Shown: one piece after another, positions 2,403-43,046 of the stretch | Layout of the letters: each line of letters starts with the position of its first letter | Position numbering within the stretch: position 1 is the first letter of the stretch | From: an uncultured Gemmatimonadales bacterium | GTDB taxonomy: Bacteria > Gemmatimonadota > Gemmatimonadetes > Gemmatimonadales > GWC2-71-9 | Direction: 5' to 3' | Length of the DNA stretch: 64,000 nt | Assembly (NCBI GenBank): GCA_963771275.1 | Contig: CAVYSW010000003.1 | Location: 482,655-546,654 of the forward strand | The notes under the pieces: model-generated | Database searches by the model: none | Seen by the model: the letters and a program-made list of their open reading frames with translations, nothing else | Told to the model about the DNA's origin: nothing | Translations under genes and position numbers: made by a program

Positions 2403-2481
2403 GCGCGTAAGCTACCGATGCGCGGCGTCGCCCGGCAGACGTGCTGGCTCGCCTGCGCTCCGTCGTCTACATTCGCCGGCC

Positions 2482-9225: not shown

Positions 9226-9309
9226 CTGAGACACCCGGGCCACCGCGGACCCGGTTGGCGGGCCCGGGGTAGCTGCATAAAGGCTTCACCACGACGTGCC
9301 GGATCCCTC

Positions 9310-11460: not shown

Positions 11461-11578
11461 CGTCGCGCCCCCGCCTGCCGGGCTGCGACCCCCACGGCGG
11501 CCACCGCGCTGGACGTCGTGACCTCTGGGAGTATCACGGTCGGGATTCTGGATCTGGCAAGGCGTCTGGGGGTAGCTC

Positions 11579-13867: not shown

Positions 13868-13878
13868 ATTCCCTGGCC

Positions 13879-16047
13879 ATGCGTCACACGCTGATTCCCA
13901 TCGCCCTCGCGGCGCTGGCCGCGCTGGCCTCCCCGCCGCTCGCCGCTCAGGCGGCGTGCGGCGACTCCCTGGGCACCCGCGGTGACACGGCGGGCGCGAT
14001 CGCCGCCTGCGAGGCGGCGGTCGAGCGCGACAAGCAGGACGCCGAGTCCCATTACCGTGCCGGTCAGCTGCTCCAGGGCAGCGACAAGGGCCGGGCCGAG
14101 GAGCACTTCCGGACCGCGATTCGCATCCAACCCGACAGCGGCAAGTACTGGCTCGCCCTGGCCGATCTGCTGCGCACCGAGGACAACGTGTTCGCCCGAT
14201 CGCGCGTGGCGGGGCTCGTGGAGAACGCGCGGGCGGCGGCGCGCGAGTTCGGCAGCGAGAAGCTGGCCGAGATCGAGTACCGCAGCGCGCGGATCGCGTG
14301 GGAGCGCTACGAGCAGCGCGCGCACCGCTACCTGTTCATCGAGGACGCGACGACGGTCGACGCCGGCGTCATGATGGGCGAGTGGAAGGGCGTCGAGGAT
14401 TTCTTCCGGCGCCAGGTCAAGCCCGACCCCGGCGACCCGGGCGGCGACGACCGGAACGAGGCGGAGCAGTACCTCCGCGCCGCGTTGGCGGCCGATCCGC
14501 GGAGCGTGCACGCGGCCGGCCTGCTCGCGGTGTTGCTGGGAGAGGGGCAGCGCTGGGACGAGGCCGTGGAGCTCGGCCGGCAGCTGGTCCGCGCCGTGCC
14601 CGACAGCGGCAATGCGTGGGCGCTGCTCGGCATGGCGCTGGCCCGCACGCGGCGCTGGGCGGACGCCCAGGCCGCGTGCGACACGGCGCTGCGACGCATG
14701 ACACCGGCCGAGCGGGTGCCGTACGGCAACCTCGGCCTGCTGCTGAAATCGGTCGACCAGGCCCGCTTCGCCGGGATGGCCCCGGCGCAGCAGACGCAGC
14801 TCGATTCGCTCTATTGGGCGGTGTCGCAACCGCTGCTCCTCGCGCCCGTGAACGAGGCGCAGATCGAGTTCTACGCGCGGCTCACCTACGTGATGCACCG
14901 CTGGGCCGATCCGTTCCGCGGCGTGCAGGGCTACGAGACGGACCGTGGCGCGGTGTACCTGCGCTACGGACCGCCGGACATCTGGGCCGCGTTCGGGCGC
15001 GGCCGGCAGAGCCAGCGGGACGCGCTCGAGAGCCTCGAGAGCGAGCGCAACACGATCGTCTGGGTGTACCAGCCCGTGCAGCTGCGCTTCATGTTCTCGA
15101 TGACACCGGGCTTCGCCCGCACGACCTTCTCCGGCGACTTCCGCACGCTGTACAACGAGCAGCGCGACCTCTTCCCGGTGCGATTCGACAACGTCCCGGC
15201 GGTCGCCGACATGGACACGATCCTGGTGCAGCTCGCGCAGTTCCGGGGCGACGGGGCCGCCACGACGGAGCTTGGCGTCTTCTCCGTCATGCCGATCGGC
15301 CACATGGCACGGGGGGCCGGCGTGGAGCAACTCCCGCTCACCACCGCCGCCATCATCCGGGACGGGCGCATGCGCGACGTGCGACGCGACCAGCGCCGGG
15401 AGACCATTCAGGCGGGCGACCCGCTGCAGGTGGAGCGGCGCAGCTTCCGGTTCGAGCTCGCTCCGGCGGAGTACCTGCTGCGCGTAGAAGCCGAGCTGGG
15501 AGGGGTGGACCGCGCCGCCCGCAGCACGTCCCTCCTTGCGTTGCGGCGCTACGGTCCCGACTCCCTGATGCTGTCGGACGTCGTGGTGGCCAACCGCCTC
15601 GCGCCGCACGATTCCACATACAGCCGCTGGACGGATTTCTTCGTGGAGCCCAGCGTGGGCCGGTTCGCTCCCGACGCGCCGGTCGCCTTGCTCTGGGAGA
15701 TCTACAACCTCGCGCCGGACTCCACCGGCCGGGCCCGCTATGCGGTCGAGCTGCGCATCACGGTGCGGGACATCGAGCGCAAAGGGTTCGCCGCGCGCAT
15801 ACTGGGCGGCATTGGCGACGCGGTAGGGCTGTCGGCCAAGGGGGACGACGAGGTGAGCCTGGTCTACGACCGCGAGGTCACGACCGCGCCGGGAGGACGT
15901 CAGGTCGAATACCTCACCGTGGACCTGGAGAACGCCCCGGTCGCGACCTACGTCATCACGCTCCGCGTGACCGACAAGCTGACGCAGCAGGTGGCCGAGG
16001 CGCGGCGCCAGATCGCGGTGACGGCCGCCCAGCTGCCCGCGCGCTAG
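13879..16047 (+). CDS. Secreted TPR-repeat / GWxTD-domain protein, paralogue 3 (more divergent)
   Basis: 722 aa. Signal peptide MRHTLIPIALAALAALASPPLAAQA. DSLYWAVSQPL...EFYARLTYVMHRW...QGYETDRGAVYLRYGPPD (GYETD at 14929-14943). Confidence 0.85.
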   Translation: MRHTLIPIALAALAALASPPLAAQAACGDSLGTRGDTAGAIAACEAAVERDKQDAESHYRAGQLLQGSDKGRAEEHFRTAIRIQPDSGKYWLALADLLRTEDNVFARSRVAGLVENARAAAREFGSEKLAEIEYRSARIAWERYEQRAHRYLFIEDATTVDAGVMMGEWKGVEDFFRRQVKPDPGDPGGDDRNEAEQYLRAALAADPRSVHAAGLLAVLLGEGQRWDEAVELGRQLVRAVPDSGNAWALLGMALARTRRWADAQAACDTALRRMTPAERVPYGNLGLLLKSVDQARFAGMAPAQQTQLDSLYWAVSQPLLLAPVNEAQIEFYARLTYVMHRWADPFRGVQGYETDRGAVYLRYGPPDIWAAFGRGRQSQRDALESLESERNTIVWVYQPVQLRFMFSMTPGFARTTFSGDFRTLYNEQRDLFPVRFDNVPAVADMDTILVQLAQFRGDGAATTELGVFSVMPIGHMARGAGVEQLPLTTAAIIRDGRMRDVRRDQRRETIQAGDPLQVERRSFRFELAPAEYLLRVEAELGGVDRAARSTSLLALRRYGPDSLMLSDVVVANRLAPHDSTYSRWTDFFVEPSVGRFAPDAPVALLWEIYNLAPDSTGRARYAVELRITVRDIERKGFAARILGGIGDAVGLSAKGDDEVSLVYDREVTTAPGGRQVEYLTVDLENAPVATYVITLRVTDKLTQQVAEARRQIAVTAAQLPAR

Positions 16048-16061
16048 CCGCGTCCGCACCG

Positions 16062-18625
<2,564 letters not shown>

Positions 18626-18629
<4 letters not shown>

Positions 18630-19162
18630 GTGTCCGGACGCTCCACCTGCTCGGCTCTCCGGCGCTCCGCGAGCGGGCGGCGGAGGTCCGCGTCGTGGGG
18701 CCCGAGGTCCCGACATTGGTGCAGGACCTGTTCGACACGATGCGCGCGGCCGAAGGGGTCGGCCTCGCCGCCAATCAGGTCGGCGTGCTCCAGCGGGTCG
18801 CGGTGGTCGATACCGGTGACGGCGAGCCGCTCGTGCTGATCGATCCGATCATCGTGGAGCGCTACGGAGAGGAGCGCGGTGAGGAAGGCTGTCTGTCGAT
18901 CCCCGACATCTACGGCGAGGTGGATCGAGCGACCCGCGTGGTAGTCGAGACGACGAGCCTCGACGGGAGCCGCGTACAGGTCGCGGCGGTCGATCTCAAG
19001 GCGCGGGCGACCCTGCATGAGATGGACCATCTCGACGGCATCCTGTTCCTCGACCGCCTGAGCCCGCTCAAGCGACGCCTGCTGCTGCGCAAGTGGCAGC
19101 GGAGCCGCAAGGGCGCGACCGGGTTCCTCAAGGAGCTTCCGCCGGCCGCGATCCGGGACTGA
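18626..19162 (+). CDS. def: Peptide deformylase
   Basis: GVGLAANQVG, EGCLSIP, HEMDHLDGILF. GTGA overlap with the yajC stop. Confidence 0.95.
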
Positions 19163-19163
19163 C

Positions 19164-20096
19164 ATGCGGCTCGTCTTCTTCGGCACGCCCGACTTCGCGA
19201 CGCCGTCGCTCCGGGCCCTGCTCGAAGAGGGCTTCGAGGTGGCCGCGGTGGTCACCCAGCCCGACCGGCCGCACGGCCGTTCCCGCTCGGTGCTGCACCC
19301 GCCGCCCGTCAAGCAGGAGGCGCTGGCCGAGGGCCTTCCAATCCTGCAGCCCGAGCAGCCCAACGCGCCGGAGTTCCTCGATGCGCTGCGCCCCCTGGCG
19401 CCCGATCTCGGCGTCGTCGTCGCGTACGGGCACATTCTGAAGCCGGCCCTGTTGGCCCTCCCCCCGCGCGGCATGATCAACGTGCACGCATCGCTGCTGC
19501 CCGCGTTGCGCGGCGCCGCCCCGATCCAGCATGCCGTGATGCAGGGGCTCGAGGAGACGGGTATCACGATCATGCAAATGGAGGCCGGGATGGACACGGG
19601 GCCCGTGCTGCATCGGGTCCCGACGCCGATCGCGACCGACGAGACCGGGGGTGAGCTCGAGGTGCGGCTCGCGGAGCTCGGCGCGCTCGCCCTGATCGAG
19701 GCGCTCACGCTGCTCGACGCGGCGGCCATCGTCCGGCAGCCGCAGGACCCGCGCCTGGCGAGCTACGCCCCCAAGATCACACCGGAGACCGCACGGATCC
19801 GCTGGGAGGCGCCCGCCCCGGTGTTGGCGCGCCTGGTCCGGGCGCTCGACCCACGCCCCGGCGCGTGGACCGCGCTCGGCGATCGGCGGATCAAGCTGTT
19901 CGGGCCGCGTGGCGCGGGGTGTCCGCCCGAGGGGACCGCGGCGGGCACGATTCTCGAGATCGACCCGGCACTCGTGGTCGCCACCGGTGACGGGGCGCTG
20001 CAGTTTCTCGACGTCCAGCCCGAGGGGAAGGCACGGCTCGCCGCGGCGGACTGGCTCCGCGGCCGCGGGGCCCGCGTCGGCGACCGGTTTTCGTGA
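19164..20096 (+). CDS. fmt: Methionyl-tRNA formyltransferase
   Basis: MRLVFFGTPDFA, VVTQPDRP, NVHASLLPALRGAAPIQHAVMQG. Confidence 0.95.
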   Translation: MRLVFFGTPDFATPSLRALLEEGFEVAAVVTQPDRPHGRSRSVLHPPPVKQEALAEGLPILQPEQPNAPEFLDALRPLAPDLGVVVAYGHILKPALLALPPRGMINVHASLLPALRGAAPIQHAVMQGLEETGITIMQMEAGMDTGPVLHRVPTPIATDETGGELEVRLAELGALALIEALTLLDAAAIVRQPQDPRLASYAPKITPETARIRWEAPAPVLARLVRALDPRPGAWTALGDRRIKLFGPRGAGCPPEGTAAGTILEIDPALVVATGDGALQFLDVQPEGKARLAAADWLRGRGARVGDRFS

Positions 20097-20707
20097 GCCG
20101 GATTCCGCCGCTCCACGCGGTAACCGACGACCGCGTGCTGCGGCTGCCCGATTTCCTCGAGCGCGCACGCGCCGTGTCGCTGGGACCGGAGGTCGGGCTG
20201 CATCTTCGGGGCACCCTGCCCGCCCGTACCCTGCTTCGCCTCGCCGGGGCCCTCCGGCCGATCACGGCGGCTACCGGCACCCGGTTGATCATCCACGACC
20301 GCGTCGATCTCGCGCGGCTGTGTGACGCCGACGGCGTGCACCTGCCGGGGCACGGCCTCCCAGTGCCCGCTGTCCGGCGACTCCTCGGGGCCGACGCCCT
20401 GCTGGGGTGTTCGACCCACACCGGCGATGCGGCCAGATCGGCGGTCGCCGCCGGCGCGGACTACGCGTTTCTCGGAGCGATCTGGCCGACGGCGTCACAC
20501 CCCGACCGCGTGCCGTTGGGCACCGCCGCCCTGCGCGGCGCGCTGCCCGCCCCGGTCATCGCCATCGGGGGCGTCACCGCGGCGCGCGCGGCGGCGGCCC
20601 GGGCGGCCGGCGCCTGCGGCGTCGCCGCGATCAGGGCCCTGTGGGACGCCGCCGATCCGGCTGCGGCCGCGCGCGCGCTGCTGCTATCTTTCGAGCATGT
20701 CTCCTGA
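20093..20707 (+). CDS. thiE: Thiamine-phosphate synthase
   Basis: LHAVTDD, LIIHDRVDLA...ADGVHL, GCSTH, ADYAFLGAIWPTASH, VIAIGGV. GTGA overlap with the fmt stop. Confidence 0.85.
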   Translation: MSRIPPLHAVTDDRVLRLPDFLERARAVSLGPEVGLHLRGTLPARTLLRLAGALRPITAATGTRLIIHDRVDLARLCDADGVHLPGHGLPVPAVRRLLGADALLGCSTHTGDAARSAVAAGADYAFLGAIWPTASHPDRVPLGTAALRGALPAPVIAIGGVTAARAAAARAAGACGVAAIRALWDAADPAAAARALLLSFEHVS

Positions 20708-20912
20708 GGTGATCCGCCTCATCGTCAACGGCGAGTCGCGCGAGGTGCCGAGCGACGCTTCGCTGCTCCAGCTGCTCGAGCGGTTCGACCTCGATCCCCG
20801 CCTGGTCGTGGTCGAGCTGAATCGCCAGATCGTGCGGCGTCCGGCCCTGGCCGGCACACGGGTCCGTGACGGCGACCAGGTCGAGCTCGTGCACTTCGTG
20901 GGGGGAGGATGA
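20697..20912 (+). CDS. thiS: Sulfur carrier protein ThiS
   Basis: 71 aa, IRLIVNGESREV...VVVELNRQIV...GDQVELVHFVGGG, with C-terminal GG. Tail of ORF 20322..20912 from ATG 20697. Confidence 0.85.
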   Translation: MSPEVIRLIVNGESREVPSDASLLQLLERFDLDPRLVVVELNRQIVRRPALAGTRVRDGDQVELVHFVGGG

Positions 20913-20913
20913 G

Positions 20914-21705
20914 GTGAGCGACGCCGCCTGGCAGGATACCGCTCTCGCGATCGGCGGCCGGACGTTCCGGTCCCGTCTCATCGTCGGCACCGGGAAGTAC
21001 AAGGACCACGCCACCATGGTCAGCGCCCATGCGGCATCGGGCGCGGAGATCGTGACGGTGGCCGTGCGCCGGGTGGATCTGGACCGCACCAAGGAAGAGG
21101 GTATCCTCTACCATCTCGATCCCCAGCGGTACTTCCTGCTCGCCAACACCGCCGGCTGCTACACGGCGGGCGACGCCGTGCGCTACGCGCGTCTCGCGCG
21201 CGAGGCGGGCTTCAACGAGTTCATCAAGCTCGAGGTGATCGGCGATCAGCAGACGCTCCTGCCGGAGGTGGAAGAGCTGCTCAAGGCCACCCGCACGCTC
21301 GTCGCCGACGGCTTTCGGGTGATGGCCTATACGAACGAGGACCTCGTCACCGCTCTCAAGCTCCAGGACGCCGGCGCGGCGGCCGTGATGCCGCTCGCCT
21401 CGCCGATCGGGAGCGGGCTGGGGCTGCTCAACCCCTACGCGATCCGGACGATCAAGAGCCGGCTCACCGTGCCGGTGATCGTGGACGCCGGCGTCGGCAC
21501 GGCGTCCGATGCCTGCGTGACCATGGAGCAGGGCGTCGACGGCATCCTGATGAACACGGCGGTCGCCGAAGCGCGCGACCCCGTGGCGATGGCCCACGCC
21601 ATGCGCCTGGCCGTCGCGGCCGGGCGCGCGGCCTACGTGGCCGGGCGGATGCCGCGCCGCGAAGTGGCGGTCCCGTCGAGCCCCGCCAAGGGAATGCTGG
21701 GCTGA
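20914..21705 (+). CDS. thiG: Thiazole synthase ThiG
   Basis: [76 protein letters not shown]. Confidence 0.95.
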
Positions 21706-21743
21706 GCGTTCGTGGCGCCGCGACCCGCGCCGCCGCGCTCGAG

Positions 21744-22994
21744 GTGCTGCGCGCCGTGCGAGGTGGCGTTACGTTCGACGCCGCGCTGGCGTCTGCCCTG
21801 GGCGACCTCGCGGAGCCGGATCGACGGTTGGCGCACGAGCTCGCCGCGGGCGTGCTGCGCGCGCGCACCGCGCTGGATCTGACGATCGCGCGCCACGTCT
21901 CGTCCGATTGGCGGCGGGTGGACGATGACGTCCGCGACGTGCTGCGGCTGGGAGCGTACCAGCTCCTCGAACTCGACCGTGTGCCCGCCCACGCGGCCGT
22001 CGCGACGGCGGTGGACCTCGCGAAGCGGGCGCACGGCACGCGGTCGGCCGGGTTCGTGAACGCGGTCCTGCGGCGGATCGCGCGCGGGCGGGATGCCGGT
22101 GCGGAACCGCGGAACGGCGGCGCGCCCGCGCTCGAGGCTGGACGGACGGCGTCGGAGCTGGCCCGGCACTACTCCCACCCGGAGTGGTTGGTCGCCCGCT
22201 GGATCGACGCGTTCGGCACGGAGCGCGCCGCGTCCCTGCTCGCGTGCAACAACCGGCGGCCCGTGACGCACCTCCAGCCGGCCCGTTGGGACCTCGACCG
22301 GCTCGCGCGCGAGCTCGCGACGGCGGGCATCACGAGCGAGTCGGCCCCCGGCGGCGCGGGCCTCGCGGTTCGCGGCATTCGCGTCGAGCAGCTGCCCGGC
22401 TACCGGGAGGGGGGGTTCGTCGTGCAGGATGCGGCGCAGGCGCTCGGTCTCGCCCATGCCGCGATCCCCGACGGCGCCCTGGTCTGGGACGCGTGCGCGG
22501 CGCCGGGCGGCAAGACCGCGACGCTGGCACGCCAATGCCGGGTGGTCGCTTCCGACGTGCGGCGCGAGCGGCTGGCCCGGTTGCTGGAGACGGTTCGGCG
22601 GGCGGCGCCCGCTGTCCGCGTCCTGTGCGCCGATGCGACTCGGCCGCCGTTCGGGGCGGACCGGTTCGACGCGGTGCTGCTCGACGCCCCCTGCACCGCC
22701 ACCGGCACGCTGGCCAGGCACCCAGACGCGCGGTGGCGCGCCTCGCCCGTCCGGCTGCGACGCCTGCAGGCGCTGCAGGGAGCGCTGCTCGATGGCGTGG
22801 CCGGCACGGTGCGGCCTGGCGGGGTGCTGGTGTACATGACCTGTTCACTCGAGCCGGAGGAAAACGCCGTCCAGATGGAGCGCTTCCTGACCCGCCATCC
22901 GGCGTTCCGCCGCGAGCAGGAGGACCTGCTGGTCTTCCCGCCCGATCGCGGCACCGACGGCGGCTACACGGCCCGCCTGGTCCGGATCGCATGA
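21744..22994 (+). CDS. rsmB: 16S rRNA (cytosine967-C5)-methyltransferase RsmB/Sun
   Basis: NusB-like N-terminal region, then FVVQDAAQ, DACAAPGGKT, LLDAPCTATGTLARHPD, LVYMTCSLEPEEN. Confidence 0.9.
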   Translation: MLRAVRGGVTFDAALASALGDLAEPDRRLAHELAAGVLRARTALDLTIARHVSSDWRRVDDDVRDVLRLGAYQLLELDRVPAHAAVATAVDLAKRAHGTRSAGFVNAVLRRIARGRDAGAEPRNGGAPALEAGRTASELARHYSHPEWLVARWIDAFGTERAASLLACNNRRPVTHLQPARWDLDRLARELATAGITSESAPGGAGLAVRGIRVEQLPGYREGGFVVQDAAQALGLAHAAIPDGALVWDACAAPGGKTATLARQCRVVASDVRRERLARLLETVRRAAPAVRVLCADATRPPFGADRFDAVLLDAPCTATGTLARHPDARWRASPVRLRRLQALQGALLDGVAGTVRPGGVLVYMTCSLEPEENAVQMERFLTRHPAFRREQEDLLVFPPDRGTDGGYTARLVRIA

Positions 22995-23914
22995 GGGTGC
23001 GTCGCACGTTCGCCGAGCGCGGGCCGCTTGCGCGGTGGATGGAGCGGTTGCGCGCGCGGCTTCACATCGGGCGCACACCGCCGAGCGATCGGCCGCGGGC
23101 CGAGGCGCCGCCGCCGTGGCCCCACGAGCCTGCGACGACGACGCTGACGTCGGAGCTGGGGGAGGGCACCGGGGCAACGCCGCGCGTCTGGTGGCGCGAG
23201 CGGCGCGTTGCGCTCATGGCCACCGGGGTGTTCGGCGGCACGCTGCTGCTCGGGTATCTGCTGGCGGCGCTCGTGTTCTTCCCCGCCCCGATCTTCGCCA
23301 GCAGCAAGAACGTGCCCCGCCTGATCGGCATGCAGGAAGGCACCGCGCGCGAGGCGCTGGCGAGGAGCGGGCTCGGCGTCGCCACCGTCGAGCGAGCTGC
23401 GCACCCGTCGGCCGCGCCGGGGGTGGTTATCTGGCAGGATCCCCCGCCGGAGGTGGTGGCCCGCGAGGGCACCGACGTCGCGCTGACGGTGAGCACCGGC
23501 CCGCAACGCATCCCGGTGCCAGATGTCGCCGGATACGAGGCGCAGGATGCCCGGCTCCTGCTGGAGTCGGCGGGCCTCAAGGTCGGGTCGATCGAGTCCA
23601 CGCAGGCGCCCACGCCCAAGAACATCGCCGTCAACACGCGCCCGCCCGCCGGCAGCACCCTGCTCCCTGGCACGGCCGTCACGCTCGTCGTGAGCGTCGG
23701 GGCCGCCACGATCCGGGTCCCCGCCCTGACCGGCCTTACCGTCGAGGAGGCGCGCTTGGCCCTCGAGACCGCGGGACTCACCCTCGGCACGAGCTTCGCC
23801 CAGACGACGCAGGCCGCGGCACCCGGGGAGATCTTCTACCAGGAACCGGCGGCCGGAACGTTGAGCGCGCCCGGGACGCCGGTCAACGTGCGCATCGCCC
23901 GGAGCGGCCAATGA
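22991..23914 (+). CDS. Membrane-anchored protein with three PASTA domains and no kinase or transpeptidase domain
   Basis: Tail of ORF 22184..23914 from ATG 22991 (ATGA overlap with rsmB). About 75-aa cytoplasmic tail, TM (ALMATGVFGGTLLLGYLLAALVFFP), then three repeats of the type VP.L.G....A...L...GL.......(PG.V..Q.P..G)....G..V.L.VS. Confidence 0.85.
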   Translation: MRVRRTFAERGPLARWMERLRARLHIGRTPPSDRPRAEAPPPWPHEPATTTLTSELGEGTGATPRVWWRERRVALMATGVFGGTLLLGYLLAALVFFPAPIFASSKNVPRLIGMQEGTAREALARSGLGVATVERAAHPSAAPGVVIWQDPPPEVVAREGTDVALTVSTGPQRIPVPDVAGYEAQDARLLLESAGLKVGSIESTQAPTPKNIAVNTRPPAGSTLLPGTAVTLVVSVGAATIRVPALTGLTVEEARLALETAGLTLGTSFAQTTQAAAPGEIFYQEPAAGTLSAPGTPVNVRIARSGQ

Positions 23915-24579
23915 GCCCAGTGCGGATCGCCCCCAGCATCCTCAGCGCGGACCCGGGACGGCTCGCGGAGGACATCGCGCGGGCCGCCGAGGGCGGCGCG
24001 GACCTGATCCACATCGACGTCATGGATGGCCGGTTCGTGCCCAATCTGACGTTCGGCGCGGCGGTGATCGCCGCCGCCCGTCGCGCCACGAGCCTGCCGC
24101 TCGACGTGCATCTGATGGTGGTGGAGCCCGAGCGCTACCTCACCCCATTCGCCGAGGCGGGGGCCGCGATCTTCACGTTCCATCCGGAAGCCACCCGCCA
24201 TCCGCAACGCCATCTCGTGGTCGCGCACGAGCTCGGGATGCGCGCGGGCCTGGCCCTCAATCCCGGCACACCGCTCGCGCTGGTCGAGGACATGCTCGAC
24301 GACGTGGATCTGCTGCTCGTCATGACGGTGAACCCTGGCTACGGCGGGCAGAGTTACATTCCAGCGTCGACCACGAAGATCCGCCGGGCACGTGCCCTGA
24401 TCGCCGCGCACGGCAACCGCACGTGGCTCGAAGTGGACGGCGGGATCACGGTGGACACGATCGCGACCGCCTACGTGGCGGGCGCGGATACTTTCGTGGC
24501 CGGGTCGGCCGTGTTCGGCGCGGATGACCCCGGCGCGGCGGTCCGCGAACTTCGGCGACGCTGCGCGGTACACGTCTAG
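23911..24579 (+). CDS. rpe: Ribulose-phosphate 3-epimerase
   Basis: IAPSILSAD, DLIHIDVMDGRFVPNLTFG, DVHLMV, VMTVNPGYGGQ, EVDGGI. ATGA overlap with the PASTA gene stop. Confidence 0.95.
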   Translation: MSPVRIAPSILSADPGRLAEDIARAAEGGADLIHIDVMDGRFVPNLTFGAAVIAAARRATSLPLDVHLMVVEPERYLTPFAEAGAAIFTFHPEATRHPQRHLVVAHELGMRAGLALNPGTPLALVEDMLDDVDLLLVMTVNPGYGGQSYIPASTTKIRRARALIAAHGNRTWLEVDGGITVDTIATAYVAGADTFVAGSAVFGADDPGAAVRELRRRCAVHV

Positions 24580-24600
24580 GGAAGCGTGGAAGGTCGAGAC

Positions 24601-25137
24601 ATGAGGAACCGCAGTCAGTGGATCGCCGTCGCCGTGGTGCTGGGCGTGCTCGGGTTCGGGTTGGGGGCGGCCCTGGTGCTCAGCCCCGAGATCAAGCGGA
24701 TCGAGCCCGGGGTGCGGGCGCCCGACGCCAGGGTCGTGGACGTCGCGACCGGCGATACGGTGGGCATCCGCGATTTCCGTGGTGAGGTGGTCCTGCTCAA
24801 CGTCTGGGCCACCTGGTGCGCGCCGTGTCTCGAAGAGATGCCGTCGATGGAGCGCCTCTACCAGGAGCTCGGCCCCGAAGGGCTCAGGATCGTCGCCGTC
24901 AGCATCGACCAGCTCGACCCCGCGGCCGTGCGGCGCTGGACGGAAGAGCGCGCCTTGACGTTCACCATTCTTCAGGACCGCTCCGGCAAGATCGAGCAGA
25001 CTTTCCAGACGACCGGCACGCCCGAGAGCTTCGTGCTCGACAAGGACGGCGTGATCGTCAAGAAGGTCATCGGGGCGGTCCCGTGGGATCACCCCGCCCA
25101 GAAAGCGCTGTTCCGGAGGCTGCTTGCGGCCGACTAG
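24601..25137 (+). CDS. TlpA-family thiol:disulfide oxidoreductase (thioredoxin fold), membrane anchored
   Basis: N-terminal TM, VVLLNVWATWCAPCLEEMPSM (WCxxC). ATG 24601 preferred, with GGAAGG 7-12 nt upstream; the ORF opens at GTG 24586. Confidence 0.85.
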   Translation: MRNRSQWIAVAVVLGVLGFGLGAALVLSPEIKRIEPGVRAPDARVVDVATGDTVGIRDFRGEVVLLNVWATWCAPCLEEMPSMERLYQELGPEGLRIVAVSIDQLDPAAVRRWTEERALTFTILQDRSGKIEQTFQTTGTPESFVLDKDGVIVKKVIGAVPWDHPAQKALFRRLLAAD

Positions 25138-26065
25138 GTCGTGGACGATCGCGCTGCGCTCGGCGATCGTCACGAACTGGCCGGTCAAGGTCACGGCGCT
25201 GGTGCTGTCCGGCGTCTTGTGGGCGGCGGTGGCCGCGGAAGAGCCCACGACCCAACTCATTCCGGTCCACCTTGTCGTCCAGCCCCCTGCGGGGCGCATG
25301 CTCCGGGGCTCGGTGCCCACGGTCCAGGCGGTCTACATCGGGAGCACCCGCGAGCTCATCAAGCTGTATTCGTCGCCGCCCACGGTCCGCAAAGTCATCC
25401 CGGACACGCTCACCGGTAACCGGTTCGAGCTGGAGCTGGCCCCCCAGGACCTCGTGACGGGGAAACAGATCAACGTGCGCGCCGAGGACATTCAGCCGCG
25501 CAGCCTGCTCATTCAGCTCGACGAGGTGGCCCGCCGAACGGTCCGGGTCATGCCGCGCGTCACGGTGGTCCCGGAATCCGGCTACGCGGTGCTCGACGGC
25601 TTGACGGTGGCGCCAAGCTCGGTGCTCGTGGTCGGGCCGGACACGGCCCTCCGCCAGCTCCACGAGGTGCCGACCTTGCCGGTCGCCTTGAGCGGGCTCA
25701 CGGCTCCGGTTCGGCGCAGGGTCAGGCTCGATACCGCCGGACTGGGACCGATCCGGGTCACCCCCGACGAAGTCGACGTGTCGGTCGATGTCGCGTTCAT
25801 GGCGGAGCGCGTCTTGATGGGCGTGCCGGTCGCCATCCAGGGGGAGCGGAGTCCCACGACCGCCGCGACCCCGCCGGCCGTCATCGTGACGGTGCGCGGG
25901 CCGAGCGGCCGGCTGGTCCACCTCACACGGGATTCCGTGACGGTCGTCGCCACCCGGACCGATACCGACCGGGCGGAGACCGTGCGGCTGCAGGTGGTGC
26001 CGCCCGAGGGCCTCACCGCCGTCGCGACACCCGATTCCGTCTTGCTCCAACGCCGCCGTGGCTGA
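25124..26065 (+). CDS. YbbR-like domain-containing protein
   Basis: 313 aa. N-terminal TM (VKVTALVLSGVLWAAV), then repeated beta-rich modules ending in patterns like V.V.GP......L..V.T.PV.L.G.T. TTG start at 25124 is uncertain. Confidence 0.7.
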   Translation: MRPTRSWTIALRSAIVTNWPVKVTALVLSGVLWAAVAAEEPTTQLIPVHLVVQPPAGRMLRGSVPTVQAVYIGSTRELIKLYSSPPTVRKVIPDTLTGNRFELELAPQDLVTGKQINVRAEDIQPRSLLIQLDEVARRTVRVMPRVTVVPESGYAVLDGLTVAPSSVLVVGPDTALRQLHEVPTLPVALSGLTAPVRRRVRLDTAGLGPIRVTPDEVDVSVDVAFMAERVLMGVPVAIQGERSPTTAATPPAVIVTVRGPSGRLVHLTRDSVTVVATRTDTDRAETVRLQVVPPEGLTAVATPDSVLLQRRRG

Positions 26066-27095
26066 CGTCGTCCTCGGGATCGAGTCCTCGTGCGACGAGA
26101 CCTCGGCCGCCATCCTGGTGTGTGACGGCGACCGGGCGGAGCTCGCGAGCCTGGTGATCCTCTCCCAGGATGTCCATCAGGTGTTCGGGGGCGTCGTTCC
26201 CGAGCTGGCAAGTCGGGCGCACCTCAGGGCACTCGACCCGGTCGTCGGCCGCGCGCTCGCTGAAGCCGGCCTGCCGCTCAGCGCGGTCGACGCCGTCGCG
26301 GTCACGGCGGGCCCGGGTCTGATCGGCGCCTTGCTGGTGGGCGTGAGCTATGCAAAGGCGCTCGCGGCCGGGTGCGGGCTGCGCCTGATCGGTGTGCACC
26401 ACCTGGAAGGGCATCTGTTCGCACCCACCCTCGAGGACCCCGACCTTGCGCCGCCGTTCGTGGCACTGATCGTGTCGGGCGGCCACACCCTGCTGCTCGA
26501 CGTGCCCGAGTGGGGCCGCTATCGGGTGCTCGGTGAGACGCGCGATGACGCCGCCGGTGAGGCGTTCGACAAAGTCGCCACGCTGCTGGGCCTCGGGTAC
26601 CCGGGCGGGCCCGCCATCGAGCGACTCGCTGAGCGGGGCACGGACCGCTTCCGCCTGCCGCGCCCCATGCTCGGCGCGGGATTCGACTTCTCGTTCAGCG
26701 GCCTCAAGACCGCCGTGCTCCACGCCGTGCGCGCCTCGACGAGTCTCGACGCCGATCGTGCGGACCTCGCCCGCTCGTTCCAGGACGCGGTGATCGACGT
26801 CCTCGCGGCGAAGGCAACGGCCGCCCTCGAGGACACCGGACACCGCGCGCTCGTGGTCGGCGGCGGCGTCGCGTGCAATCGGGCGCTCGCCGAGCGACTG
26901 GCGCGCGCGCTGTCCGGGCGCGCCCGCGTCGTGGTAGCACAGCCCCGGCTCAACCTCGACAACGCCGCGATGATCGCCCGCGCCGGGTGGTTTCACCTCC
27001 GGCGCGGCGAGCAGAGCGATCACTTTCTGGACGCCGATCCGTCGCTCCCCTGGCCGGGGCTGGAGCGTGGGCCGGTCGCCGCCCCCGCGCCATGA
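26058..27095 (+). CDS. tsaD: tRNA N6-adenosine threonylcarbamoyltransferase TsaD
   Basis: VLGIESSCDETSAAI, GVHHLEGHL, SGGHT, DDAAGEAFDKVA..LGLGYPGGP, GGGVACN. Confidence 0.95.
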   Translation: MADVVLGIESSCDETSAAILVCDGDRAELASLVILSQDVHQVFGGVVPELASRAHLRALDPVVGRALAEAGLPLSAVDAVAVTAGPGLIGALLVGVSYAKALAAGCGLRLIGVHHLEGHLFAPTLEDPDLAPPFVALIVSGGHTLLLDVPEWGRYRVLGETRDDAAGEAFDKVATLLGLGYPGGPAIERLAERGTDRFRLPRPMLGAGFDFSFSGLKTAVLHAVRASTSLDADRADLARSFQDAVIDVLAAKATAALEDTGHRALVVGGGVACNRALAERLARALSGRARVVVAQPRLNLDNAAMIARAGWFHLRRGEQSDHFLDADPSLPWPGLERGPVAAPAP

Positions 27096-27928
27096 CCGTC
27101 TATCCCCTCACGTTCAAGATTCTCGGCCTGCAGGTCACGGGCTTCGGCATCATGATGATGCTCAGCTTTCTCGCCGCGGGCTGGGTGATGCAACTGGAGC
27201 TGCGCCGCCGGAAGCTCAACGAGGAATACGCCGCAGACGTGGTCGTGGCGGCCGTCATCGGCGGCATCATCGGCGCGCGCCTGTGGTACGTGGCGCTGAC
27301 CGGCGATCCCCACGCGCTGTTCTCGCGCAGCGGCCTCGTGTGGTACGGCGGCTTCATCGGCGGACTGGTGGCGGTGCTCGGCTGGGGCTGGTGGAAGCGG
27401 GTCCCGGCCCGGTTCACCTTCGAGCTGACCGCACCCGCGCTTGCACTCGGACACGGTCTGGGCCGCGTCGGGTGCTTTCTCGTGCAGGACGACTACGGCA
27501 TGCCGACCACGCTTCCGTGGGGGATGCGGTTTCCGCACGGCCTGCCGCCGACCACCGCCGCCGACCTCAGTCGCTGGGGTGTAGCAGTCCCCGCCGGGAC
27601 ACCACCCGGCGAAGTGCTCGCGGTGCACCCGACGCAACTCTACGAGGTCGTAGCGCTGCTGTTCATGTTCTGGCTGCTGTGGCGGCTCCGCCGGCACCAC
27701 CACGCGCTGGGCTGGCTGTTCGGCGTCTACCTCGTCGCCGTCGGGATCGAACGCTTCCTGGTCGAGTTCCTGCGCGCGAAGGACGACCGCATGCTCGGTC
27801 CCTTCACGCTCGCCCAGGCCGCGAGCGTCGCCGCCGCACTGTGCGGCGCGCTGTTGCTGTGGCGCTGGCGCCGGGACGACGGACGCCGCGTCGCCGCCGA
27901 CGGGGCCCTCAAGCCCCCCGGGACCTAG
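27092..27928 (+). CDS. lgt: Prolipoprotein diacylglyceryl transferase
   Basis: Tail of ORF 26873..27928 from ATG 27092 (ATGA overlap with tsaD). GFGIMMMLSFLAA, IGGIIGARLWYV, GLVWYGGFIGG, GRVGCFL, HPTQLYE. Confidence 0.95.
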   Translation: MTVYPLTFKILGLQVTGFGIMMMLSFLAAGWVMQLELRRRKLNEEYAADVVVAAVIGGIIGARLWYVALTGDPHALFSRSGLVWYGGFIGGLVAVLGWGWWKRVPARFTFELTAPALALGHGLGRVGCFLVQDDYGMPTTLPWGMRFPHGLPPTTAADLSRWGVAVPAGTPPGEVLAVHPTQLYEVVALLFMFWLLWRLRRHHHALGWLFGVYLVAVGIERFLVEFLRAKDDRMLGPFTLAQAASVAAALCGALLLWRWRRDDGRRVAADGALKPPGT

Positions 27929-27971
27929 CCGGAACGTTCCCATGCGTGGGCGGGCTCGGTCGCCCGGGGAC

Positions 27972-28001
27972 TGGACGGACCGAGATGAAGATATGTATAT
28001 T
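27972..28001 (+). promoter_or_regulatory. Candidate sigma-70-type promoter upstream of the FmdB-like gene
   Basis: TGGACG (27972-27977), 18-nt spacer, TATATT (27996-28001). Sits at the edge of a sharply AT-rich island. Confidence 0.35.
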
Positions 28002-28061
28002 GCTATAGATTAATTATCTCGACCTGCCGAGCGCACCGGGACACAACGCGGACCCGATCCA

Positions 28062-28277
28062 TTGCCCAGCTACGACTACCGCTGCCGCGATTGCGGCCAG
28101 GCGTTCTCGATCCGCCTCTCGATGGCCGCCTACTCCGAGGGGGGTGTACGCCCGCCCTGCGTCGCGTGCGGCTCGGCGAACGTGGAGCGGAGCTTCTCTG
28201 CCGTGAACGTGCTCACCGGGTCGCGCGGGGGCGGCTCCTCTGCCGCCGGGTGCGGATCATCGAGCGGGTTCACCTGA
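28062..28277 (+). CDS. FmdB-family zinc-ribbon protein (CxxC_CxxC_SSSS type)
   Basis: MPSYDYRCRDCGQAFSI...PPCVACGSANVER.FS followed by a G/S-rich tail. TTG start at 28062 gives the canonical MPxYxYxCxxCG N-terminus. Confidence 0.8.
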   Translation: MPSYDYRCRDCGQAFSIRLSMAAYSEGGVRPPCVACGSANVERSFSAVNVLTGSRGGGSSAAGCGSSSGFT

Positions 28278-28291
28278 GCCACCTGACGCTG

Positions 28292-28308
28292 CCGCCCGGT
28301 GCGGGCGG
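28292..28308. terminator. Short GC hairpin between convergent genes
   Basis: CCGCCCG-gtg-CGGGCGG, 7-bp stem, between the FmdB-like stop (28277) and the FTR1 stop (28342). No U tract. Confidence 0.3.
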
Positions 28309-28341
28309 AGATCGCTGCTTCCCGTCGGGTTGAGCCCGGGG

Positions 28342-35599: not shown

Positions 35600-36498
35600 C
35601 CTCGCCGCCGGCCGGCGGTCATCACGCGCAGCGTCCCGGCGAGCAGCTCGGCGGTGAACGGCGTCCGGCCGGCGGCCTCGCCGTCCGTCTGCACGACGCG
35701 CGCCGGCTCCATCTCCACCGTCACGACCGATCCGCGGGCGCGGCGCACGTTGTCGCTTCCCCCGCCGGCCCCGCTGATCCACTGCACCAGCACCGCCGCG
35801 CTCTGCACGAACCCCTCGCCCCGCAGCATGACGACGTCGAACAGTCCGTCGTCGAGCTCCACGCCGGGCCCGAATCGCAGGAACGGCGGCACGAACTCGC
35901 TGCAGTTGGCCACCATCACCGTCGCGGCCTCGCCATCGAGGCGGGCCCCGTCCACGGTCACGCGGTAGGGGACGTTGCGCACCGTCCCGATCGTCTCCCA
36001 CGCGCGCGCGATGTACGCCCCCATCTTCCACCGCCGCTTGGCCGCCGTCGTCGTCGTCGCCATGAGATCGGCGTCGAACCCGGCGCCGCACGCCACGGCG
36101 AAGTAGCGCGTCCCGTCGTCCCGCTCCAGCCTCCCGAGGTCGACCGCGCGCGGCGTGCCCCGGGTGATGACGAGCGCGGCCCGGGTCGGGTCGCGCGGCA
36201 GCCGGAGGTTGCCCGCGAGCAGGTTGCCGGTGCCCCCGGGGATCAGCGCGAGCGGGAGATCGTGACCCTGCATGCCCTTCACGGCCTGCATCGCGGTTCC
36301 GTCACCACCGTACACCGTGACCACGTCCACGCCCGCACGCACGCCATCGGCCGCGAGCTCGGCAGCGTGGCCGGCATGCTTCGTCTTCTCGATGTCGACC
36401 CGCCAACCCTCGCGGCGGAGCACGCTCCGCACCGTGCGCAGGACCCTTGGGTCCGTGCGCGCCGCCGCCGGATTGGCGATGATCAGGGTGTGGGACAT
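35596..36498 (-). CDS. Diacylglycerol-kinase-family lipid kinase (YegS/BmrU-like)
   Basis: 300 aa from ATG 36498-36496. LIIANPAA, VVTVYGGDGT, LALIPGGTGNLLA, FAVACGAGFDA. The track ORF 35596..36705 has a spurious N-extension. Confidence 0.85.
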   Translation of the reverse strand: MSHTLIIANPAAARTDPRVLRTVRSVLRREGWRVDIEKTKHAGHAAELAADGVRAGVDVVTVYGGDGTAMQAVKGMQGHDLPLALIPGGTGNLLAGNLRLPRDPTRAALVITRGTPRAVDLGRLERDDGTRYFAVACGAGFDADLMATTTTAAKRRWKMGAYIARAWETIGTVRNVPYRVTVDGARLDGEAATVMVANCSEFVPPFLRFGPGVELDDGLFDVVMLRGEGFVQSAAVLVQWISGAGGGSDNVRRARGSVVTVEMEPARVVQTDGEAAGRTPFTAELLAGTLRVMTAGRRRG

Positions 36499-42982: not shown

Positions 42983-43046
42983 GTTCAGCAGGTTACGTTA
43001 TCGTGTCAACTTGCGGTGCGGCCCGAGGGCCGCCCGTTGCCGGAGG

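What the first reader, a model, noticed from the sequence alone, without database searches (positions are those of the whole stretch)
22991..23914. Kinase-less triple-PASTA membrane protein at the PrkC position of the def-fmt-rsmB...rpe cluster
The order def-fmt-(thiESG)-rsmB-PASTA-rpe mirrors the Firmicute cluster def-fmt-rsmB-rlmN-prpC-prkC-cpgA-rpe-thiN, as I recall it from Bacillus subtilis. In that cluster the PASTA-bearing gene is the Ser/Thr kinase PrkC. Here the corresponding gene is ATGA-coupled on both sides. It keeps a TM helix and three extracytoplasmic PASTA repeats, but its cytoplasmic part is only about 75 residues with no kinase motifs. No phosphatase gene is present either. 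PASTA domains are muropeptide or beta-lactam sensors typical of monoderms. A standalone anchored PASTA array in a diderm, retained in the ancestral position, suggests one of two things. It could be a relic that signals through a partner, or a new peptidoglycan-binding function.
Basis: partly seen in the sequence, partly recalled or inferred. Interest (0 to 1): 0.55.

Follow-up and report, generated by a model that had tools for sequence, protein, structure and literature searches.

The report
Kinase-less PASTA membrane protein of Gemmatimonadota
This gene encodes a membrane-anchored protein with three cell-wall-binding PASTA modules and no kinase; it looks like the sensor half of a Gram-positive-type cell-wall kinase, and a whole phylum of two-membrane bacteria keeps it at the same chromosomal spot.

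Summary
ORF 22991-23914 (+, 307 aa) overlaps rsmB and rpe by ATGA at each end. It encodes a 72-residue cytoplasmic tail, one TM helix and three PASTA domains (Pfam 123.9 bits). No kinase, PP2C or FHA domain was found in the 64 kb.

It is not a decaying relic. All 80 Gemmatimonadota species loci retrieved keep it, with rpe downstream in 80/80 and rsmB upstream in 78/79. It is as conserved as RsmB or Def.

Family-specific invariant features are an N-terminal M-[RK]-x-R-R-[RH] motif and a GYxxAA...FPAPIFA transmembrane/juxtamembrane motif.

Its TM+PASTA part aligns collinearly with the C-terminal half of the Stk1/PknB PASTA-kinase model. It resembles kinase-type rather than PBP-type PASTA arrays.

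A new lead emerged. Gemmatimonadota also encode bare, catalytically intact, PknB-like kinase-domain-only proteins that match the N-terminal half of the same model. In 21-23 of the 80 loci one sits about 4 kb downstream, at the end of the same gene block. The window lacks it at that site.

A two-polypeptide PASTA kinase is therefore possible but unproven.

Verdict: a new variant of a known kind, of moderate interest.

The parts
22991..23914 (+). Complete gene for the kinase-less PASTA protein (307 aa plus stop)
   Evidence: ORF and translation. Pfam PASTA x3. A 100% identical protein, P0001, is in NCBI/ENA.
22991..22994 (+). ATGA overlap: start of the PASTA gene and stop of rsmB (rsmB = 21744-22994)
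   Evidence: Read directly from the sequence. RsmB domains found by Pfam.
22991..23023 (+). N-terminal cytoplasmic basic motif M-[RK]-x-R-R-[RH]... (residues 1-11; MRVRRTFAERG here)
   Evidence: M1, R4 and R5 are at least 90% conserved in alignment A1. The motif sits at a start codon in 72 of 80 loci.
23024..23071 (+). Predicted short cytoplasmic helix (residues 12-27)
   Evidence: AF2 model; block pLDDT 82/64. Only moderately conserved.
23072..23206 (+). Variable, disordered Pro/Thr/Ala-rich linker ending in the basic stretch before the membrane (residues 28-72)
   Evidence: pLDDT below 50 at 31-63. Length varies from about 0 to 90 residues among homologues.
23207..23281 (+). Transmembrane helix core V73-F97, with invariant G88, Y89, A92 and F97
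   Evidence: Continuous helix 64-96 in the model. Invariant columns in A1. Aligned to the TM region of the PASTA-kinase model.
23279..23299 (+). Family-specific periplasmic juxtamembrane motif F-P-A-P-I-F-A (residues 97-103)
   Evidence: F97, P98, A99 and P100 are invariant. A regex for the motif finds it in nearly all of the listed family proteins at the same distance from the C-terminus, and in only 2 of 146 non-family poly-PASTA proteins.
23303..23506 (+). PASTA domain 1 (residues 105-172)
   Evidence: Pfam. AF2 secondary structure. 9 invariant columns.
23513..23704 (+). PASTA domain 2 (residues 175-238), the best-conserved repeat
   Evidence: Best Pfam stretch, 175-235. 17 invariant columns.
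23711..23905 (+). PASTA domain 3 (residues 241-305)
   Evidence: Pfam. AF2. 14 invariant columns within residues 241-305.
23911..23914 (+). ATGA overlap: stop of the PASTA gene and start of rpe (rpe = 23911-24579)
   Evidence: Read directly from the sequence. Ribul_P_3_epim 255.7 bits.
17062..27928 (+). Co-directional conserved block tgt-def-fmt-thiE-thiS-thiG-rsmB-PASTA-rpe-resA-like-ybbR-like-tsaD-lgt, in which the gene is embedded
   Evidence: Pfam and NCBIfam. The order from tgt to tsaD is the same in the 80 Gemmatimonadota loci wherever flank is present. lgt follows tsaD in the 54 loci where it was detected. No convincing internal promoter or terminator.
27929..28341 (.). Intergenic site between lgt and the FTR1/cytochrome-c gene. 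In 21-23 relatives a bare PknB-like kinase gene sits here; the window has none.
   Evidence: No kinase remnant in the gap or elsewhere in the window. The gap holds an AT-rich promoter-like island and a small zinc-ribbon ORF.

Best explanation
The gene encodes a bitopic inner-membrane protein with its N-terminus in the cytoplasm. It is the kinase-less counterpart of the sensor half (juxtamembrane tail + TM + PASTA rod) of a PknB/PrkC/Stk1-type PASTA kinase.

Proposed mechanism:
1. The three PASTA modules form an extended rod in the periplasm. They bind un-crosslinked peptidoglycan stem peptides or lipid II, so the protein reports, or is concentrated at, sites of active wall synthesis.
2. Output does not go through a fused kinase. 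It goes through the unusually conserved transmembrane/juxtamembrane segment (GYxxAA...FPAPIFA) and the extreme N-terminal basic motif (M-[RK]-x-R-R-[RH]).
3. These two elements dock a membrane or cytoplasmic partner. The best current candidate is one of the soluble, kinase-domain-only PknB-like kinases of the phylum.

Shown: domain architecture, predicted fold, kinase-type affinity of the PASTA array, phylum-wide synteny, purifying selection, and the conserved motifs.

Inferred: the ligand, the topology, the existence and identity of a partner, and descent from a fused kinase at this locus.
For: - Architecture and fold: Pfam PASTA x3. The AF2 model has one TM helix and three confident PASTA modules.
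- Kinase-type affinity: the only NCBIfam hit is NF033483 (Stk1-family PASTA kinase), one collinear stretch of residues 71-302 on model positions 330-563/563, 126.6 bits. By PDB sequence, PknB is best at E 4.9e-17 and Stk1 at 2.6e-10; the only PBP hit is PonA2 at 0.008. Foldseek's best hit is PknB PASTA2-4 (5e12, E 9e-14, TM 0.69), and PBP2x/PBP1 are far weaker.
- Functional constraint: 80 of 80 Gemmatimonadota loci keep the gene; rpe follows it in 80/80 and rsmB precedes it in 78 of the 79 loci with upstream flank. Median identity is 52%, against RsmB 53%, Def 54% and ThiE 50%.
- Output elements: G88, Y89, A92, F97, P98, A99 and P100 are invariant. The FPAPIF motif is family-specific. The N-terminal basic motif is present in 72/80 loci even where the tail is only about 16 residues.
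- Position: prpC-prkC-cpgA lie beside rpe-thiN in Firmicutes (PMC6449344).
- Candidate partner: see the second explanation.
- Ligand precedent: PknB PASTA binds mDAP-type lipid II and muropeptides, and this controls its localisation (PMC6428115).
Against: - No ligand or partner has been tested.
- The PknB residues reported to contact iGln/mDAP (S556 K557 / N559 Q560) align to S235 V236 / A238 A239 here. That particular binding site is not conserved.
- The window holds no kinase, phosphatase or FHA gene.
- The basic N-terminus could be only a positive-inside topogenic signal.
- Synteny with the Firmicute prkC site rests on just two flanking genes, and could not be checked in other phyla.
Confidence: 0.5

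Rival explanations
1. This is a more specific version of the best explanation: a two-polypeptide ('split') PASTA kinase. The catalytic half is a separate, soluble protein of about 276 aa that is a PknB-like kinase domain and nothing else. The PASTA protein recruits or activates it at the membrane through its N-terminal motif and tail. Together they reconstitute a PknB/PrkC-like wall-sensing kinase in a diderm.
For: - In 23 of 80 loci, a bare kinase ORF (38-42% identical to the PknB kinase domain in the 22 full-length hits; L052 is a fragment) lies convergent with lgt at the end of the same block, about 4 kb from the PASTA gene.
- It hits NF033483 on model positions 11-267 with 261 bits; the next-best model scores 164. 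The PASTA protein covers 330-563 of the same model.
- By PDB rank, three PASTA kinases (PknB 182 bits, Stk1 157, StkP 150) come ahead of PknE (140) and PknA (124).
- Among 120 family members, all catalytic residues and T171 are intact. The D-helix Arg101, described as KAPD-specific, is present in 111/120, and D76 in 119/120 (bioRxiv 10.1101/2025.01.12.632604).
- All 120 best homologues are kinase-only proteins of 248-329 aa, and every homologue that carries an organism name is from Gemmatimonadota.
Against: - The window has the same flanks (lgt | FTR1-cytochrome c ... TamB-TamA) but no kinase and no remnant. 23 other loci are the same.
- Bare kinases occur in several unrelated contexts: next to prs, after phoU-ppx, and beside a TPR kinase. 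The family may therefore be multi-copy and not a dedicated partner.
- PknB is a common best hit for many bacterial Hanks kinases.
- Mirror-tree partial correlation for kinase-PASTA is 0.29, no better than the controls at 0.21-0.23.
- The N-terminal motif is equally present whether or not a kinase is at the lgt site.
- No interaction test was possible.
Confidence: 0.25
2. The protein is a purely periplasmic scaffold or anchor with no signalling across the membrane. The PASTA rod binds nascent peptidoglycan and positions or regulates wall enzymes. This would resemble StkP PASTA with LytB, or the PASTA domains of PBP2x in septal localisation. In layout it would resemble FtsN (short basic tail, TM, wall-binding domain). 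On this reading the N-terminal basic motif is only topogenic or lipid-binding.
For: - The layout is a short basic tail, then a TM, then a wall-binding module.
- In many members the tail is only about 16 residues.
- There is no kinase, phosphatase or FHA gene in the window.
- The neighbouring ResA-like and YbbR-like genes are also envelope proteins. PASTA and ResA-like distances co-vary, with partial r 0.62 (not tested for significance).
- Kinase-less PASTA arrays are abundant.
Against: - The extreme N-terminal motif is conserved in sequence, not only in charge. It is separated from the TM by a linker of very variable length. That is unusual for a mere topogenic signal.
- The TM residues are invariant, which suggests a specific intramembrane contact.
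Confidence: 0.2
3. The gene is a non-functional relic: a truncated prkC remnant drifting towards loss.
For: It lacks the catalytic half that defines its closest characterised relatives.
Against: - The ORF is intact in 80/80 species loci, with overlapping start and stop codons in this window.
- It is as conserved as RsmB and Def.
- Alignment A1 has 48 invariant columns.
- The AF2 fold is confident.
Confidence: 0.02
4. The PASTA array derives from a PBP2x/PBP1-type penicillin-binding protein, or was acquired by lateral transfer from a monoderm. Its place between rsmB and rpe would then be coincidental.
For: - PASTA also occurs at the C-terminus of class B PBPs. Weak structural hits to PBP2x and PBP1 exist.
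- Cross-phylum synteny was not surveyed.
Against: - No PBP model hit was found.
- PBP chains rank far below the kinase ectodomains in both sequence and fold.
- The TM immediately precedes the PASTA array, as in kinases.
- The alignment to the kinase model is collinear to its very end.
- Vertical inheritance within the phylum is indicated by the fixed position of the gene.
Confidence: 0.08

Closest known systems
PASTA Ser/Thr kinases (M. tuberculosis PknB, B. subtilis PrkC, S. aureus Stk1/PknB, S. pneumoniae StkP; NCBIfam NF033483; the 'KAPD' family)
   Same: - A single TM is followed by a linear array of PASTA repeats that ends the protein.
- The alignment to model positions 330-563 is collinear.
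- These are the best sequence and fold matches.
- A disordered Pro/Thr-rich cytoplasmic juxtamembrane tail is present.
- The gene lies beside rpe and after rsmB, as prkC does in Firmicutes (plus my own knowledge).
   Different: - There is no kinase domain: 126.6 bits against a 450-bit cut-off.
- There is no adjacent PP2C phosphatase, rlmN or cpgA.
- The host is a diderm phylum.
- The N-terminal basic motif and the FPAPIFA motif are family-specific.
- The PknB SK/NQ ligand residues are not conserved.
PASTA domains of class B penicillin-binding proteins (S. pneumoniae PBP2x, S. aureus PBP1, M. tuberculosis PonA2)
   Same: The PASTA fold is the same, and binding to un-crosslinked peptidoglycan is presumed in both.
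   Different: - There is no transpeptidase domain.
- The array is linear with three repeats, directly after a TM, rather than a compact C-terminal pair.
- Similarity is much weaker: Foldseek E 3e-6 to 1e-3 against 9e-14, and the only sequence hit has E 0.008.
Kinase-less PASTA proteins annotated as 'beta-lactam-binding protein with PASTA domain' or 'PASTA domain-containing protein' (JGI and NCBI names), including giant poly-PASTA proteins from metagenomes
   Same: These are PASTA-only by Pfam. Homologues of this gene carry exactly these names. Such proteins are numerous.
   Different: - This family has a fixed number of three repeats.
- It has a conserved N-terminal motif and TM/juxtamembrane motif that the poly-PASTA proteins lack.
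- It has a fixed housekeeping gene context.
- I found no functional study of any of these proteins in the library searched.
FtsN-type bitopic wall-binding divisome proteins (short basic cytoplasmic tail, TM, SPOR domain). This is an analogy only.
   Same: The overall layout is a basic N-terminal tail, a TM, and a periplasmic peptidoglycan-binding module.
   Different: The wall-binding fold is different (PASTA, not SPOR). There is no sequence similarity, and no evidence of divisome association.

Membership tests
PASTA domain proteins (Pfam PF03793) | At least one PASTA domain above the Pfam gathering score | tested here: met
   123.9 bits against a 23.2 cut-off, in three stretches, E 2.5e-36.
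PASTA domain proteins (Pfam PF03793) | Small alpha+beta fold (one helix packed on a three-stranded sheet), repeated as beads on a string | tested here: met
   The AF2 model has pLDDT above 90 in all three modules. Foldseek top hits are the PknB and Stk1 PASTA ectodomains, probability 1.00.
PASTA domain proteins (Pfam PF03793) | Binding of peptidoglycan stem peptide, lipid II or beta-lactam | not testable with these tools
   The only indirect check was negative for that site: the PknB contact residues S556 K557 / N559 Q560 align to S V / A A.
PASTA Ser/Thr kinases (NF033483; PknB/PrkC/Stk1) | N-terminal Hanks-type kinase domain in the same polypeptide | tested here: not met
   There is no Pkinase hit. 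The upstream frame is rsmB. The N-terminus is conserved as the start. None of the 120 closest homologues has a kinase domain.
PASTA Ser/Thr kinases (NF033483; PknB/PrkC/Stk1) | Whole-protein score above the curated cut-off (450 bits) | tested here: not met
   126.6 bits, covering only model positions 330-563.
PASTA Ser/Thr kinases (NF033483; PknB/PrkC/Stk1) | Single TM followed by C-terminal extracytoplasmic PASTA repeats | tested here: met
PASTA Ser/Thr kinases (NF033483; PknB/PrkC/Stk1) | Adjacent cognate PP2C phosphatase gene (prpC/pstP/stp) | tested here: not met
   The neighbours are rsmB and rpe. No PP2C was found in any ORF scanned in the window.
PASTA Ser/Thr kinases (NF033483; PknB/PrkC/Stk1) | Firmicute-type locus: gene lies between rsmB(-rlmN) and (cpgA-)rpe | tested here: inconclusive
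   The flanks rsmB and rpe are met here and in the 80 relatives (rpe 80/80, rsmB 78/79). The Firmicute order comes from PMC6449344 (prpC-prkC-cpgA, rpe, thiN) and from my own knowledge for def-fmt-rsmB-rlmN. No third phylum could be surveyed.
Split (two-polypeptide) PASTA kinase. This is a hypothetical class. | A separate PknB-like kinase-domain protein encoded in the same genome | tested here: inconclusive
   One is present about 4 kb away in 21-23 of 80 relatives and elsewhere in others. It is absent from this 64-kb window. The rest of the source genome could not be searched.
Split (two-polypeptide) PASTA kinase. This is a hypothetical class. | Physical or functional coupling of the two proteins | not testable with these tools
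The mirror-tree signal was no better than the controls.
PBP2x-type class B PBPs with PASTA | Transpeptidase (and dimerisation) domains N-terminal to PASTA | tested here: not met
   There are no such Pfam or NCBIfam hits.

The most novel reading that the evidence does not exclude
Gemmatimonadota, a diderm phylum, may run a PknB/PrkC-type wall-sensing kinase as two separate polypeptides.
- The sensor is this TM-3xPASTA protein. It would sit at what may be the ancestral prkC slot between rsmB and rpe.
- The catalytic part is a soluble, kinase-domain-only PknB-like enzyme.
- The enzyme would be docked by the sensor's conserved N-terminal M-[RK]-x-R-R-[RH] motif.

This would make PASTA-kinase signalling, currently described as specific to Gram-positives, older and more modular than thought. 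It would also give a natural system in which sensing and catalysis are genetically separable.
Probability: 0.25. Interest if true: 0.75.

Novelty: new variant of a known kind. Interest (0 to 1): 0.55.

Why it matters
PASTA kinases are central regulators of wall synthesis, division, dormancy exit and beta-lactam tolerance in Firmicutes and Actinobacteria. They are described as Gram-positive-specific (bioRxiv 10.1101/2025.01.12.632604; PMC6448482).

Here a sensor-only version is kept, across all 80 species loci retrieved from a diderm phylum, under housekeeping-level constraint. It sits at the locus where Firmicutes keep prkC.

This bears on three questions:
- How old is PASTA-based wall sensing, and did it predate the split between monoderms and diderms?
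- What does a PASTA ectodomain do when it cannot activate a fused kinase?
- Can sensor and kinase work as separate proteins?

If the bare PknB-like kinases are its partners, the long-debated question of how PASTA-ligand binding controls kinase activity could be tested with two separable components. If they are not, the family is a clean case of a PASTA module used for something other than kinase or PBP function.

Tried and rejected
1. The representative-library profile search was swamped by giant poly-PASTA proteins whose many repeats add up in score. None of the 150 best matched the H[RC]D-x-K-x-x-N catalytic-loop regex, and the 10 scanned with Pfam had no Pkinase hit. Cluster look-ups gave no taxonomy. 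The search was useless for finding out-of-phylum orthologues.
2. The single genome-contig scan returned only Gemmatimonadota. Neighbouring phyla therefore could not be surveyed. Foldseek against AFDB, which would have given organisms, was not available.
3. I ran a search with a concatenated bare-kinase + PASTA query to pull out natural fusions. The two top long hits were tandem double-kinase proteins without PASTA, one from Anaerolineae. No fusion was found.
4. I looked for a kinase remnant in the 414-bp lgt/FTR1 gap and in the whole window. There was none.
5. A mirror-tree co-evolution test of kinase against PASTA gave partial r 0.29, against 0.21-0.23 for the controls. This is inconclusive.
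6. The N-terminal motif does not track kinase presence at the lgt site.
7. A twin-arginine signal was considered for the 'RRRF' motif and for the RR before the TM. I rejected it. The N-terminal motif is separated from the hydrophobic segment by up to about 90 residues, and the RR before the TM is not conserved.
8. Literature searches for kinase-less PASTA proteins in diderms or Gemmatimonadota found nothing relevant.
9. An in-frame upstream kinase created by a sequencing error was rejected (conserved start).
Full report
**1.
- The ORF at 22991-23914 (+) encodes 307 residues.
- Its ATG overlaps the TGA of rsmB (ATGA, 22991-22994). Its own TGA overlaps the ATG of rpe (ATGA, 23911-23914).
- The reading frame stays open upstream to 22184, but that stretch is Arg/Pro-rich nonsense lying inside rsmB. 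The N-terminus MRVRR... is conserved among homologues. The start is therefore correct, and no kinase domain is hidden in frame.
- Pfam finds only PASTA, three times: 123.9 bits against a cut-off of 23.2.
- An AlphaFold2 model built on a 26-sequence alignment (pLDDT 85.7) shows a short helix (12-27), a disordered Pro/Thr-rich linker (28-63), one long helix (64-96, hydrophobic core V73-F97) and three confident alpha+beta modules.
- The neighbours are tgt, def, fmt, thiE, thiS, thiG and rsmB on one side. On the other side are rpe, a ResA/TlpA-like thioredoxin, a YbbR-like protein, tsaD and lgt. No convincing internal promoter or terminator was found.
- No Pkinase, PP2C or FHA domain turned up in any ORF scanned across the 64 kb. 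tblastn with kinase probes was negative.
- The window carries Omp85/POTRA, TamB and a GT9 heptosyltransferase, which fits a diderm host.

**2. It is a core gene of the phylum, not a relic.**
- The 120 best homologues are all PASTA-only proteins of 196-345 aa. Those that carry an organism name are named Gemmatimonadota, Gemmatimonadales or similar; other names are generic JGI function labels.
- A scan of one genome per GTDB species found 297 relatives. The best 80 are all titled Gemmatimonadota, Gemmatimonadetes, Gemmatimonadales or Gemmatimonadaceae, apart from two 'bacterium HR33' records.
- In those 80 loci the order tgt-def-fmt-thiE-thiG-rsmB-PASTA-rpe-resA-ybbR-tsaD is kept wherever flank is available. 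rpe follows in 80/80, and rsmB precedes in 78 of the 79 loci with upstream flank.
- Median identity to the window protein is 52%. That is the same as RsmB (53%), Def (54%) and ThiE (50%) in the same loci.
- The alignment has 48 invariant columns. Two features are specific to the family:
  - An extreme N-terminal motif M-[RK]-x-R-R-[RH], found at a start codon in 72/80 loci. The rest of the tail varies from about 16 to over 100 residues.
  - A transmembrane/juxtamembrane signature G88-Y89-x-x-A92...F97-P98-A99-P100-I-F-A. It is absent from the non-family poly-PASTA proteins apart from two chance regex matches.
- PASTA2 and PASTA3 are the best-conserved repeats.

**3. The PASTA array is of the kinase type.**
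- The only NCBIfam hit is the Stk1-family PASTA-kinase equivalog NF033483. It is one collinear stretch from residue 71 to 302 on model positions 330-563 of 563, that is, the TM through to the very C-terminus. The score is 126.6 bits against a 450-bit cut-off.
- Against PDB sequences the best hits are the ectodomains of M. tuberculosis PknB (E 4.9e-17) and S. aureus Stk1 (2.6e-10). The only PBP hit is PonA2 at 0.008.
- Foldseek ranks PknB PASTA2-4 (E 9e-14, TM 0.69) and Stk1 first. PBP2x and PBP1 are orders of magnitude weaker.
- The residues reported to contact iGln/mDAP of lipid II in PknB (S556 K557 / N559 Q560; PMC6428115) align to S235 V236 / A238 A239. That particular site is not conserved, so ligand binding remains an inference from the fold.

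**4. Position.**
- In Firmicutes prpC-prkC-cpgA form a conserved operon with rpe and thiN as neighbours (PMC6449344).
- That def-fmt-rsmB-rlmN precede it in B. subtilis is my own recollection.
- Here the PASTA gene sits directly between rsmB and rpe.
- The resemblance is real but rests on two flanks. I could not survey other phyla. Common ancestry of the site is likely rather than shown; my estimate is about 0.6.

**5. An unexpected lead: bare PknB-like kinases.**
- A tblastn probe with the PknB kinase domain hit nothing in the window. It did hit 23 of the 80 related loci.
- The ORFs are kinase domains and nothing else. They are convergent with lgt at the end of the same block, about 4 kb from the PASTA gene.
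- One of them scores 261 bits on positions 11-267 of the same NF033483 model, with the next model at 164. This is the complement of the part matched by the PASTA protein.
- Its PDB ranking is PknB 182, Stk1 157, StkP 150, PknE 140, PknA 124 bits.
- Its 120 best homologues are all kinase-only, with median length 276 aa. Those that carry an organism name are from Gemmatimonadota.
- Across those 120, the catalytic residues and T171 are intact in 120/120. The D-helix arginine described as specific to the PASTA-kinase ('KAPD') family is present in 111/120, and D76 in 119/120.
- The window shares the macro-synteny on both sides of that site: lgt on one side, and FTR1/cytochrome c ... HAD, S58 peptidase, TamB, TamA on the other. 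It has only a 414-bp gap there, with an AT-rich promoter-like island and a small zinc-ribbon ORF, and no kinase remnant.
- Among informative loci, 21 have the kinase after lgt and 23, like the window, have FTR1 directly.

**6. Caveats on that lead.**
- Bare kinases of the same family also lie in unrelated contexts: divergent from prs-rplY-pth, after phoU-ppx, and beside a TPR kinase. The family may have several copies per genome.
- PknB is a frequent best hit for bacterial Hanks kinases in general.
- The mirror-tree signal for kinase-PASTA (partial r 0.29) is no better than the controls.
- The N-terminal motif does not depend on a kinase at the lgt site.
- A search with a concatenated kinase+PASTA query found no natural fusion. 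The only long top hits were double-kinase proteins.
- Whether the source genome of this window has such a kinase elsewhere could not be determined.

**7. Most likely mechanism.**
I commit to the following, with overall confidence about 0.5.
- The protein is inserted N-in. This is inferred from the Arg-rich tail and the single TM.
- Its three PASTA modules form a rod in the periplasm that binds un-crosslinked stem peptides or lipid II. This is inferred from the fold and from PknB, PrkC and StkP.
- The protein thereby marks, or senses, sites of wall synthesis.
- It passes position or occupancy to a partner through the invariant TM/juxtamembrane segment and the N-terminal basic motif. The conservation is shown; the function is inferred.
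- The leading candidate partner is a soluble PknB-like kinase (probability about 0.25).
- The main alternative is a purely periplasmic scaffold for wall enzymes (about 0.2).
- Decay (about 0.02) and PBP origin or chance insertion (about 0.08) are poorly supported.

**8. Comparison and novelty.**
- The protein works like, and is homologous to, the sensor half of PASTA kinases. It fails the defining membership tests for that family: no kinase domain, a score far below the cut-off, and no adjacent phosphatase.
- It belongs to the loosely annotated set of 'PASTA domain-containing' or 'beta-lactam-binding protein with PASTA domain' proteins. I found no functional study of that set.
- Kinase-less PASTA arrays are common as such.
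- What is new is a defined three-repeat family with its own cytoplasmic and membrane motifs, fixed in a diderm phylum at a prkC-like locus, with a plausible detached kinase.
- I rate it a new variant of a known kind, with interest 0.55.

Noticed in passing
window 27929-28341; relatives L008, L010, L013, L016, L018-L021, L024, L025, L027, L030-L032, L034, L036, L037, L039, L040, L046, L048, L052, L076, L082-L084: There is a clean presence/absence difference. Relatives carry a bare PknB-like kinase gene between lgt and the FTR1/cytochrome-c gene. The window has only a 414-bp gap, with an AT-rich promoter-like island (27972-28020) and a small CxxC...CxxC zinc-ribbon ORF (about 28068-28277, +).
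   Followed up: yes
L081 10001-10879; L087 4001-4906; L088 4001-4870: Kinase-domain-only proteins of 250-330 aa form a large, well-conserved Gemmatimonadota family (about 60-73% identity). They occur in several unrelated gene contexts: next to prs, after pstB-phoU-ppx, and beside a TPR kinase. There may be several paralogues per genome. Their targets and regulation are unknown.
   Followed up: partly
window 25124-26065 (+): A YbbR-like protein (Pfam YbbR, 23.9 bits) lies between a ResA/TlpA-like thioredoxin and tsaD, with no cdaA (c-di-AMP cyclase) neighbour. In Firmicutes, YbbR/CdaR is the partner of CdaA. This position is kept in the loci surveyed across the phylum.
   Followed up: no
window 24586-25137 (+) and 22991-23914 (+): Pairwise distances of the PASTA protein and the adjacent ResA-like protein co-vary beyond the species signal. 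The partial r is 0.62 with n = 20 loci and no significance test. The PASTA protein has no cysteine, so a direct redox link is unlikely.
   Followed up: no
window 20093-21705 (+): thiE-thiS-thiG are embedded between fmt and rsmB in the housekeeping block. No TPP riboswitch was found. In fact no Rfam family at gathering score and no tRNA gene was found in the whole 64 kb.
   Followed up: partly
window 18233-19162 (+): The def ORF has an N-terminal extension of about 130 residues before the deformylase domain (residues 138-281). It overlaps the end of tgt. The extension also aligns in the closest relatives.
   Followed up: no
window 36498-42997 (-), 2260-3453 (+): TamB and an Omp85/POTRA protein (TamA-like) sit in tandem, and a GT9 heptosyltransferase is also present. 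These are outer-membrane and LPS hallmarks and confirm a diderm host.
   Followed up: partly
window 834-2411 (-); 9226-16047 (+): There is a response-regulator receiver fused to a PglZ domain. Separately, three large TPR-repeat proteins lie in tandem upstream of queA-tgt.
   Followed up: no
proteins P0121-P0268 (representative library): Metagenomes hold very large poly-PASTA proteins (500-5200 aa, up to 27 matched stretches). None of the 146 non-family ones matched the kinase catalytic-loop regex. Of the 10 scanned with Pfam, some carry Laminin_G_3, EF-hand or BACON-like domains. Their taxonomy could not be obtained.
   Followed up: partly
L085 10001-11971; L086 1362-3557: Tandem double-kinase-domain proteins are the closest multi-domain relatives of the bare Gemmatimonadota kinases, at 47-51% identity. 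One is from an Anaerolineae MAG.
   Followed up: partly
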